Made by a program: the position numbers and the translations under genes. The notes beneath the pieces were generated by a model. The model was given only the letters and a program-made list of their open reading frames with translations. It was not told the origin of the DNA and ran no database searches. A stretch of DNA of 63,679 bases, counting the filler, from Kipferlia bialata (taxonomy: Eukaryota), in the NCBI GenBank assembly GCA_003568945.1. It is 4 parts of 4 records of this genome, joined end to end, with 100 filler letters (N's around TTAATTAATTAA, not from the genome) between each part and the next. Parts side by side here need not be neighbours in the genome. Positions count along the whole stretch, not along the records: positions 1 to 20,082 come from BDIP01000395.1; 3 more parts are not named here. One strand, written 5' to 3'. Every line of letters begins with the position of its first letter. The first letter of the stretch is position 1. Of the stretch, positions 16,301-19,300 are shown one piece after another.

Positions 16301-19300
16301 CCACACACTCCAGGCAGGTGTCCTCACACAGCACATCGATGTAGTCCTGGGGTGAGGGTACTGAACATGTATTTGTTGGTAGGTATATATAGTATGAATA
16401 TACAATATAGTATGAATGTATATAGTAGTATAAGTGTCCTCACACAGCACATCGATGTAGTCCTAGGGTGAGGGTACTAAACATGTATATATATATAATT
16501 GTATATATATGTGTGTGAGTATAGAGGTATATATAGATATGAATATAGAATAGTGTATGAATATATGAATATAGTGTATACGTCCTCACAGAGCACATCG
16601 ATGTAGTGCTGGGGTGAGGGTACAACAAATGTATATTTATGTGTGAGTATAGAGGTATATATATGTAGGTACGGGTATTATATATGTATGAATATAGTAT
16701 ATACGTCCTCACATAGCACATCGATGTAGTCCTGGGGTGAGGGTACTAAACATGTTCTTGTTGGTAGGTATATATAGTATGAATATACTATATAGTATGA
16801 ATGTATATTGTAGTATAAGTGTCCTGAAATGAGGGTATTACTGAATATCTGTTGAGAACACATTTACTCGAAATACCCTCAAGCGGTGAGCAAATCCTAC
16901 AAGAGACGACACTATATAGATACGTGAGTATAAGTATACCATGGTAAGACTGTGCAATTATTACTGGTATATGTACTATACATACCTGTGGTATGGGCTG
17001 AGACTGGGGCTTCCCAAACTCATCGATGTAGGTGACCTGGGGGTAAGCTCTCTTGGGAACGTATATAGAGCAGGATACAGTAAAAACCTCTCATTCTAAA
17101 GAATATAGTATACATATTGGCCTCAAGGTCTCTTTCCCGAACTCATCGATGTAGGTGACCTGGGGTTGATGTACATTCTAGGGCAACTGTATACAACCAA
17201 GGGACGAGTACTGTTACGTTGCATTTCAACATGGAAGAAAGTGATGGTATATATATATATATATATACATAGTCATTGGCGTACACACCTTTGCGTCTGG
17301 GACCTTGTCAGCCACATATGTATAACAATACACATAGATTAATATACACAGATATATATACTTATATATATCATATTATACCTTAGCGTCTGGGTCCTTG
17401 TCACCCATATATGTATAACAATACACATATATATATATATAAATATATACTTATATTTATCATACTATACCTTTGCATCTGGGTCCTTATCCACAGGCAG
17501 GTCCTCTCCACACTGGTTGGCCTATGGTCAGTATAGTGTATGTATACATGATTTTTACTATGGATATATGGAATATGTATAGCAGCAGAGCCAGCAGATG
17601 ATTAGTTCATAGTATATAAACCCCACCGCGAATATATGTAGAAACTATATACATGTATATCAACACGCTATATATATAGGGCCACCGTACCTGTGCAGTG
17701 AATGACACTGCGAATGTCTCGTCCTCCGTCAGATACTCGTCGGGTCTATATGTATATATATATATATATATATAAGTGAATATAGAGTAGCATCAACTCA
17801 CCTGTGCAGTAAAGGATACTGCGAATGTCTCGTCCTCTGTCAGATACTCATCGGGGGGGTTGAGCTTCTGGCTCAGGTCGTTCCATCTGGCATAAGTATG
17901 TATGTGAATGATAATTTCTAATTATTAATATACATATATATGAAAGTATACAAATACATGTATAATATATGTCTTCAAGGTGTTGACTAGGATCGTTCAA
18001 TCTGCAGTGAGCATAGGAAAGATGTGATGTGTTTGTATTGATCAAGGGACATACAAAAAACACACCTGGCCTTGTTGTCCCCCAAGAAGTCATCTATGTA
18101 TAGATAGAGATAGAGATAGATACATATTAGGTGCACACCTGAACTTGTTATCTCCCTGTATCTGGTCAGGTGGCAGACTGAAGTCATCCTCGTTGACAAT
18201 GTAGCCACGGGTCACCTCAGTCAGGTTGACCTGGGGTCAGTATAGATAGAGTATATACATATATATTAACGTATATATATTAACGTATATATATACATAT
18301 ACATATATGTACAACATATTGCTAACAATGATACCACGTGTCACCTCAGTCAGGTTGACCTAAGACCTGTACACATGTGTAGTATACTATGAGAGTACCT
18401 TAGTCGGGGCAGTTGATATAGTAATCAGCTCTAGGATCTGTGCAAAGATGTCATCGAGGGTGCCACTTGTTCTCATATATACTATATACTATGTCCATTC
18501 AGAAGAAGAAGAAGACTTTGAGTAGTGTTATAGATTAGAGTACCTTAGTGGGGGCTGTAGAGATGGTGATCAGCTCCAGGATCTGTGCAAATATGTCATC
18601 TAGGGTGTCGTTGGTGACACCGGGGAAGTACTGGCCACCGGTGGTGGTGGCCATGTCTAGTCATTAGAGATCAGCTGCAATAGTATACATGTACTATATA
18701 TCAACATATGTGTTAAGAGGTTAAGAGAGAACTAGTTTTATCACAAACCGGGAAGTACTGACCACCAGTGGTTGTGGCCATGTCTGGTGTAAGGAGTCCT
18801 TACTAAGGACATATATAGTATATATATATAATATAATATAAAATACATTAATTATACATTGTATATGGCCATATCTGGATGTAAGTATGTTCATAACAAA
18901 TAAACACAATATACAATGTAAATACATATTAGAATAGAGATAACGGGGAAGTACTGGCCAGTTGGCGCCATGTCCAGTGTCAGAACGTCTGCATAATGAT
19001 AGTATTTAGTGTAAATAGTTCTCTTCAGTAGATATATAGTATATGCAATAGGACCCACCCTTCATTGGAACATCATCCACATCGGGACCAAGGCCGATGG
19101 AGAAGATCTGGGATGAGATGTATAAGGTATATATATATATAAGATCTGGGATGAGATGCATAGGGCATATGGTTGTATGACTAAATGAGCTCATCCATTG
19201 TTACGAATACTATATATTATATATTGAATTATTAGTTATTAATACTATATATTCAATTATAGTATATAACTTGTGAAGAATGCTATAGTAGACCAAGGTC

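What the first reader, a model, noticed from the sequence alone, without database searches (positions are those of the whole stretch)
18399..18606. Synonymously recoded shadow: 21 codons, 9 differences, all silent
The real exon end (18544-18606, minus) and the intronic copy (18399-18461) both encode TLDDIFAQILELITISTAPTK followed by GTACTC. Differences are cta/ctc, ata/atc, ctg/cta, atc/att, acc/act, atc/ata, tct/tca, aca/act and ccc/ccg. The copy lacks the 5' part of the exon (MATTTGGQYFPG). That part has its own upstream shadow at about 18749-18790 with four more silent changes. This is the strongest single sign of selection on an incomplete exon copy.
Basis: seen in the sequence. Interest (0 to 1): 0.85.

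Follow-up and report, generated by a model that had tools for sequence, protein, structure and literature searches.

The report
Intron-buried exon copies record other alleles
In a free-living relative of Giardia, about two-thirds of the introns examined hold a partial copy of the neighbouring exon that differs from it mainly at silent codon positions; the copy tested is left out of the spliced RNA, and such copies are likely relics of other working versions of the gene pasted in by faulty recombination, which would be a trace of hidden sex and very high diversity.

Summary
An ORF in the window is identical to a named Kipferlia bialata protein. The pair is one of 80 such copies in 5 of 7 genes that I modelled. 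Upstream copies are always acceptor plus exon start, downstream copies exon end plus donor. Overall there are 151 silent and 65 replacement differences (pS 0.29, pN 0.035). Self-duplication with neutral decay gives a ratio of 2-3, not 8. A spliced contig carries the live exon unchanged and skips the focal copy, so the dominant mRNA is not mosaic. Copies that cannot be spliced in frame show the same bias. Silent changes fall evenly on live, near and far copies (11/10/13). Best reading (0.55): each copy came from a different working allele through misrepaired recombination and then decayed. This needs silent diversity near 0.25-0.3, which I could not test. The scan noted silent-biased splice-junction repeats on two other genomes. 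I found no paper describing this in Kipferlia.

The parts
18544..18656 (-). Live exon (exon 4 of my 36-exon model), C-terminal part of a VWA domain
   Evidence: Stop-free 936-aa model; collinear with VWA proteins P0002 and P0004; covered by a spliced contig with 0 other letters
18392..18462 (-). Focal downstream copy: last 64 nt of the exon plus donor GTACTCT, 145 nt from the live copy; 9 silent, 0 replacement differences
   Evidence: skipped by the spliced contig
18463..18543 (-). 81-nt spacer starting with the live donor; use of the copy's donor would read into a stop 3 codons after the exon
   Evidence: Sequence
18750..18799 (-). Upstream copy: its own CAG acceptor plus the first 34 nt of the exon; 3 silent, 0 replacement differences
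   Evidence: no cover by the spliced contig
18939..18973 (-). Farther upstream copy with an in-frame 6-nt deletion; the two bases before it read GG, not AG
   Evidence: sequence
18325..18361 (-). Upstream copy of the start of exon 5, in the same intron as the focal copy
   Evidence: the contig's letters here follow live exon 5 (1 other letter, loose end = 18204-18175)
18139..18230 (-). Live exon 5
6499..20002 (-). Host gene, 5'-truncated by the scaffold end: VWA domain then Cys/Asp-rich repeats; 48 polarised copies, pS 0.347, pN 0.037
20372..23987 (+). TPR-repeat gene with 11 polarised copies, pS 0.235, pN 0.014
   Evidence: Pfam TPR hits, all below the curated cut-offs
30112..32562 (+). Part of a kinase-like gene (label recalled from a motif) with 7 copies, pS 0.149, pN 0.032
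60649..63279 (+). Part of a membrane-protein gene (polyprenol-kinase-like; label recalled) with 10 copies, pS 0.124, pN 0.037
3720..6085 (-). RING-finger gene B (label recalled) with 4 stacked upstream copies before its last exon, pS 0.259, pN 0.054

Best explanation
The focal copy is a partial exon duplicate that is left out of the spliced RNA, and it likely descends from a different working allele, placed beside the live exon by misrepaired recombination between diverged homologous chromosomes. Shown: the copies are one-sided (acceptor plus exon start upstream, exon end plus donor downstream), about 106 nt away, silent-biased, and the innermost splice sites are used at exon 4/5. Inferred: a break in or near an exon is repaired by copying about 100 nt from a homologue carrying another allele. 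Diverged introns block proper re-annealing, and the ends are joined by polymerase-theta-type end joining, or an unequal crossover gives the same product. Only products that keep one whole exon with both splice sites survive. The two versions differ silently from birth because both had been working exons. The dead one then decays slowly (about 0.03-0.04 changes per site) and may be refreshed by conversion from working alleles. This predicts silent diversity of about 0.25-0.3 among K. bialata lineages.
For: Polarity: 50 upstream-5' and 30 downstream-3' copies, none reversed and none a whole exon; 7 of 87 segments touched no exon edge and were dropped. pS 0.290 against pN 0.035 over 80 copies, and 0.190 against 0.029 over the 32 outside the host gene. 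Nearest copies only, host gene: 94 silent, 42 replacement in 36 copies. Self-duplication gives ratios of 2.1-3.2 in all 16 settings, while an allele model gives pS 0.27-0.30 and pN 0.033-0.035. In 15 live/near/far triplets, private silent changes are 11/10/13 and private replacements 2/5/8. Old splice sites survive at about the replacement-site decay rate (AG 44 of 50, GT 27 of 30), while intron flanks score 0.51 against 0.40 for unrelated introns. Exon 10's stack has two incompatible splits, as recombination would give. Metamonads lack NHEJ and fornicates lack Rad51A. K. bialata has PolQ, Spo11, Dmc1 and Rad52 models. End joining of failed SDSA makes tandem duplications from about 100 bp in C. 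elegans (PMC8654963).
Against: No second allele was seen: only 1 contig was laid at 80% likeness, the cluster of P0001 has 1 member, and two metagenome scans gave no convincing relative. The diversity required is extreme (from recall, above most eukaryotes), and no sexual process has been observed in Metamonada. The allele model's parameters were chosen to fit, so the fit shows sufficiency only. Upstream and downstream breakpoints meet within 5 nt in only 4 of 14 exons (P about 0.06). Silent differences lean towards C in the copies (43 T>C, 27 C>T, P 0.07), which could mean faster change on the live side. Gene models are hand-made, and copies within a stack are not independent. No junction microhomology could be read.
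Confidence: 0.55

Rival explanations
1. The donor was a diverged working homologue of another kind: a sister lineage met in past hybridisation, or a paralogue elsewhere in the genome acting through ectopic conversion.
For: It explains silent-only differences equally well without extreme standing diversity. One exon-12 copy has 5 differences in its first 16 nt beside an identical 16-nt acceptor flank, like a conversion tract.
Against: Three silent states occur at one codon in some stacks (CTG/CTC/CTA; CCA/CCC/CCT), more than one hybrid partner would give. No K. bialata paralogue of exon 4 appeared, though these are weak negatives with a 41-aa query. Five unrelated genes show the pattern.
Confidence: 0.17
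2. Both copies are used now: recombination or template switching between the direct repeats, in a fraction of DNA copies or transcripts, weaves mosaic exons, so selection acts on the copy directly.
For: It accounts for the silent bias with no need for high diversity. Farther copies are no more decayed than nearest ones in pooled counts (pN 0.029 against 0.040). Two clear indels inside copies are in frame (-6, -3), though two more at alignment edges are not.
Against: The spliced contig is pure live exon at all nine sites. Its length fits exons 4-20 with no extra sequence (1367 against 1365 nt). There is no rise of pN towards the breakpoint (0.039/0.037/0.028). Private replacements rise with distance (2/5/8). 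No such machinery is known in this lineage (recalled).
Confidence: 0.1
3. These are ordinary self-duplications at splice junctions (F7-type repeats) that decay neutrally, with silent changes piling up mainly, and faster, in the live exon.
For: Some stacks are clearly recent self-copies with near-identical flanks (for example 16320-16440 against 16705-16825, 95%). The T>C lean is 43 against 27.
Against: Simulated ratio 2-3 against 8 observed. Even with live silent sites changing 6-10 times faster, about 4 near-private silent changes are expected against 10 seen (P 0.005-0.017 in 5 settings). Intron flanks have diverged heavily.
Confidence: 0.1
4. The copies are small cassette exons included in some mRNAs, duplicating a peptide.
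For: 32 of 80 copies, the focal one among them (a 90-nt cassette after a 55-nt intron, without a branch-point consensus), could be spliced in frame.
Against: The 48 copies that cannot be included show the same bias (pS 0.297, pN 0.039). The contig skips the focal copy. VWA homologues show no duplicated peptide.
Confidence: 0.04
5. Assembly artefact: two haplotypes stacked in tandem by a short-read assembler.
For: The published draft was built from short reads with SPAdes. A few copies flank N gaps (9100-9146 against 9399-9445, identical). No DNA contig was laid on the focal stretch, which the tool says can be a filter effect.
Against: Only 2 21-mers of 18300-18800 recur in the window, and the focal pair has no identical run that long, so a de Bruijn graph has nothing to loop on. 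Run X1 holds 0.97 of sampled 31-mers of 11200-20000, though it may be the source of this DNA. Copies are partial, polarised and up to 4 deep.
Confidence: 0.04

Closest known systems
Human F7 intron 7 37-bp VNTR with silent pseudo-donors (PMC1557585, abstract seen)
   Same: The repeat unit spans an exon-intron junction. Extra units carry intact splice sites that are not used, and the donor nearest the exon wins.
   Different: Here the copies occur in 46 of 70 modelled introns, on both acceptor and donor sides, 1-4 deep, with mostly dissimilar intron parts and a strong silent bias.
Tandem duplications from end joining of failed SDSA (C. elegans helq-1; PMC8654963, passages seen)
   Same: Direct duplications from about 100 bp upward, made by joining an extended end. 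PolQ is present in K. bialata.
   Different: There the copies come from the sister and the median is about 1 kb. Here the period is about 106 nt and the template is inferred to be a diverged allele.
Intron gain by tandem genomic duplication (PMC3265369, abstract seen; PMC4974935, search listing only)
   Same: An exon segment is duplicated and one copy's worth is spliced out.
   Different: No new intron is made. The existing intron grows by about 115 nt per copy, and the mRNA uses one whole exon rather than halves of two copies.
Paralogous MDSs in ciliate scrambled genes (PMC9797194, passages seen)
   Same: Local partial duplicates of coding segments lie next to the used copy.
   Different: Ciliates assemble a somatic genome from either copy. 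Here splicing skips the copy and no mosaic was seen at contig level.

Membership tests
Splice-junction repeat (F7 IVS7 type) | Unit spans an exon-intron boundary and carries a pseudo splice site | tested here: met
   80 polarised copies; AG 44 of 50, GT 27 of 30
Splice-junction repeat (F7 IVS7 type) | The authentic, innermost site is used and the pseudo-sites are silent | tested here: met
   Shown for one intron (exon 4 to exon 5), at contig level
Splice-junction repeat (F7 IVS7 type) | Head-to-tail near-identical units (minisatellite) | tested here: not met
   Focal copy is single; flanks average 0.51 against 0.40 for unrelated introns. A few stacks elsewhere do look like young arrays.
Mutually exclusive or cassette duplicated exon | Whole exon copy with both splice sites, included in mRNA | tested here: not met
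   0 of 87 segments span a whole exon; focal copy skipped; 48 of 80 cannot be included in frame
Intron gain by tandem genomic duplication | mRNA joins the 5' half of copy 1 to the 3' half of copy 2 across a new intron | tested here: not met
   Contig follows the live exon to its end with 0 other letters
Failed-SDSA / theta-mediated tandem duplication | Direct duplication of about 100 bp to 10 kb | tested here: met
   Median period 106 nt over 58 nearest copies, at the lower edge of the published range
Failed-SDSA / theta-mediated tandem duplication | Microhomology or templated insertion at the junction | not testable with these tools
   Junctions are old and the donor allele is unknown; contexts listed
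Failed-SDSA / theta-mediated tandem duplication | Two-sided events share one breakpoint in the exon | tested here: inconclusive
   4 of 14 exons within 5 nt, null mean 1.7, P about 0.06
Inter-allelic origin | The copy's silent letters segregate in live exons of other isolates | not testable with these tools
   No other isolate found
Ciliate-type alternative use of paralogous segments | Either copy is incorporated into the expressed product | tested here: inconclusive
   Not in the dominant contig; rare forms need raw reads

The most novel reading that the evidence does not exclude
The intronic copies are working spare parts. K. bialata recombines across these short direct repeats in a fraction of its DNA copies or transcripts, as ciliates do with paralogous segments, so both copies stay under protein-level selection in thousands of introns.
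Probability: 0.1. Interest if true: 0.92.

Novelty: new variant of a known kind. Interest (0 to 1): 0.68.

Why it matters
If the best reading holds, one genome carries a record of many former alleles. That would be evidence of recombination between very diverged lineages in Metamonada, where no sexual process has been directly observed (PMC8516963). It makes a sharp prediction (silent diversity about 0.25-0.3) that a few more isolates can test. It also gives a route of intron growth: a roughly 75-nt intron gains about 115 nt per event and its splice sites are replaced. It shows that a low dN/dS in an intronic copy need not mean the copy is used, and it warns of traps for gene prediction in this species. 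With 124,912 introns reported, the pattern could number tens of thousands of cases, but that is an extrapolation from 70 introns.

Tried and rejected
No whole genome is held for the window, so all counts come from its 63.7 kb. No holder is on record as RNA; X2 is a guessed RNA run, and I treat it as spliced because its contig has a GT-AG joint. A wide read lay over 11200-20000 gave nothing, so RNA letters were seen for exon 4 and the start of exon 5 only. Run X1 laid 0 contigs on the focal stretch, which the tool says can be false. A word search with the 41-aa exon frame scored none of 2 candidates. The profile-free search gave 3 hits: P0002 and P0004 are VWA proteins, and P0003 (Neocallimastix) I set aside as chance. 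Metagenome scans: 0 of 597 pattern matches confirmed, and 1 of 61, a 19-aa match L001 that I did not follow. One search had RING B in the wrong frame (23 stops); one search corrected it and dropped 7 segments that touch no exon edge. One search left out one triplet that flanks an N gap. RING A and the GNAT-like gene had 0 copies. Several genes in the window were not modelled. Old split exons with a fused copy inserted were rejected because most copy breakpoints lack GT or AG. Truncated whole-exon duplicates were rejected because polarity is never reversed. The Paramecium preprint gave no usable diversity figure, as its tables are images. Ten paper searches found no description of this pattern in Kipferlia; 'duplicat' occurs 0 times in the genome paper's main text, and I did not search its supplements.

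Full report
Observation. On the minus strand, 18606-18544 and 18461-18399 encode the same 21 residues with 9 differences, all silent third positions, and both are followed by GTACTCT. The upstream copy is 18783-18750 with 3 clear silent changes. A third copy from 18973 has an in-frame 6-nt deletion. In simulated self-duplication with a neutral copy, 2 of 4706, 3 of 4793 and 4 of 4800 nine-difference outcomes had no replacement.

Organism and gene. ORF 48985-49692 is 100% identical to a named Kipferlia bialata protein. The species is a free-living fornicate with 124,912 GT-AG introns (PMC5874029, passages and the methods section seen). The window is four scaffolds joined by N linkers. I built by hand a 36-exon GT-AG model from 20002 to 6499 that reads 936 codons without a stop. 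Its first exons align without a duplicated peptide to two VWA-domain proteins. The focal exon is exon 4, 18656-18544.

The pattern is general. In 7 modelled genes or gene parts I found 87 exon-like segments in flanking introns. Fifty are upstream and cover the exon start, 30 are downstream and cover the exon end, and 7 touch no edge and were dropped. None is reversed and none is a whole exon. The old AG survives in 44 of 50 and the old GT in 27 of 30. Forty-six of 70 introns hold a copy. The median period is 106 nt, each copy adds about 115 nt, and the shortest copy-free introns are 46-99 nt. Two genes had none. Over the 80 polarised copies there are 151 silent and 65 replacement differences (pS 0.290, pN 0.035). 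Outside the host gene the counts are 36 and 16 (P 3e-5 against a null that lets both copies change silently). Using only the nearest copy per side in the host gene gives 94 and 42. Simulated self-duplication through the same detection step gives pS/pN of 2.1-3.2 in 16 settings, against about 8 observed.

Is the copy used? One contig of run X2 (kind guessed as RNA, 1368 nt, depth 8) was laid at 80% likeness. It covers 18542-18657 with no other letter and then jumps over the focal copy at a GT-AG joint. Live exon 5 lay outside the laid stretch, so the next 24 letters were placed on exon 5's own copy with one mismatch. The loose end reads as live exon 5 (18204-18175, compared). The contig's length fits exons 4-20 of my model to within 2 nt. 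So the dominant mRNA uses the innermost splice sites and is not mosaic; contigs cannot exclude rare forms. The focal copy could in principle be a 90-nt in-frame cassette, but the 48 copies that cannot be included in frame are just as biased (pS 0.297, pN 0.039) as the 32 that can.

Who carries the silent changes? In 15 triplets of live, nearest and farthest copy, private silent changes are 11, 10 and 13, and private replacements 2, 5 and 8. A chain of self-copies with a fast-changing live exon predicts about 4 near-private silent changes (P 0.005-0.017 in 5 settings). The copies therefore carry silent changes of their own. Their intron flanks are barely more like the live flanks than unrelated introns are (0.51 against 0.40), yet they keep splice consensus. 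Exon 10's stack has incompatible splits, and one exon-12 copy has a cluster of 5 changes beside an identical flank. The simplest reading is that live exon and copy were separate working exons until shortly before one went dead.

Mechanism. I infer repair or unequal exchange between diverged homologues. Copying about 100 nt from another allele across a splice junction and joining the ends gives exactly these one-sided products, and selection keeps only those that leave a whole exon. A two-stage simulation with both copies functional and then brief decay reproduces pS and pN, but its parameters were chosen to fit. Context: metamonads lack NHEJ and fornicates lack Rad51A (PMC8516963, passages). 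K. bialata has PolQ, Spo11, four Dmc1 and five Rad52 models (its Supplementary Data 2, rows seen; one supplementary PDF could not be read). Dmc1 stabilises mismatched joints (PMC6719624, abstract). Theta-mediated joining of failed SDSA makes tandem duplications from about 100 bp (PMC8654963, passages). None of these steps is shown for this locus. By my own population-genetic reasoning, any heritable route, including selection through occasional collapse of the repeat, needs silent diversity of roughly 0.25 or more.

Against. No second allele or close paralogue was seen. The diversity needed is extreme. Breakpoints of upstream and downstream copies coincide in only 4 of 14 exons (P about 0.06). 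Farther copies are not more decayed in pooled counts. RNA letters were seen for one exon only. A few copies elsewhere flank assembly gaps. For the focal pair an assembly loop is unlikely, because only 2 21-mers of the region recur in the window and run X1 holds 0.97 of sampled words, though it may be the source of this DNA.

Comparison. It works like the F7 intron 7 repeat in that extra splice sites stay silent (PMC1557585, abstract), but most copies are not minisatellite units. It is not intron gain by duplication (PMC3265369, abstract) and not a mutually exclusive exon. The ciliate model of alternative use of local duplicates (PMC9797194, passages) is the template for the novel case, which I put at 0.1. 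Ten searches found no account of this pattern in Kipferlia. Two earlier scan notes report silent-biased splice-junction repeats on other genomes; I did not test them.

Verdict. Real, far beyond chance, common across this window, and skipped in the mRNA at the one intron tested. New variant of a known kind; interest 0.68.

Noticed in passing
window 20083-20182, 40260-40359, 60434-60533: Three N44-TTAATTAATTAA-N44 linkers: the window is four unlinked scaffolds, so gene order across them means nothing.
   Followed up: yes
window 1486-3039 (+) and 6085-3720 (-): Inverted pair of RING-finger paralogues (label recalled), pS 0.26 and pN 0.07 over the first 150 aa. Gene B has 4 stacked copies before its last exon; gene A has none detected.
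   Followed up: partly
window 47366-48478 (+): GNAT-like gene (label recalled) with six short introns (67-133 nt) and no exon copies; copy density differs strongly between genes.
   Followed up: partly
window 14674-14623 (-): Upstream copy of exon 12 has an identical 16-nt acceptor flank, yet 5 differences in its first 16 nt (silent plus I to L), then identity; it looks like a short conversion tract.
   Followed up: partly
window 15901-15501 (-): Three upstream copies of exon 10 and the live exon give two incompatible splits; one copy has an in-frame 3-nt deletion.
   Followed up: partly
window 18657 and about 11301 (-): The X2 contig ends 1 nt before exon 4 and, by length, about 2 nt into exon 21. 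Ends at exon edges hint at branching (skipping or intron retention) there.
   Followed up: no
window 14103 and 13982 (-): The modelled live acceptor of exon 14 is a weak AAG, while its upstream copy has a canonical branch point and CAG; which one is used was not seen.
   Followed up: no
window 9100-9146 / 9399-9445 and 11045-11098: Copies that flank N gaps, one pair identical over 47 nt; these could be scaffolding duplicates.
   Followed up: partly
window 55224-58406 (+): 1060-aa open frame with internal repeats of about 290 aa and a likely transmembrane helix; only weak Pfam hits. A ubiquitin-like stretch (recalled) lies upstream near 54060-54330.
   Followed up: no
window 20002-17802 (-): The VWA part aligns best with P0004, an unnamed metagenome protein, over about 145 aa; a lateral origin was not tested.
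   Followed up: no
introns throughout the window: The branch point sits 1-8 nt before the 3' AG (CTGAC/CTCAC/CTAAC then CCCAG), like the fused signal recalled for Giardia and Trichomonas.
   Followed up: no
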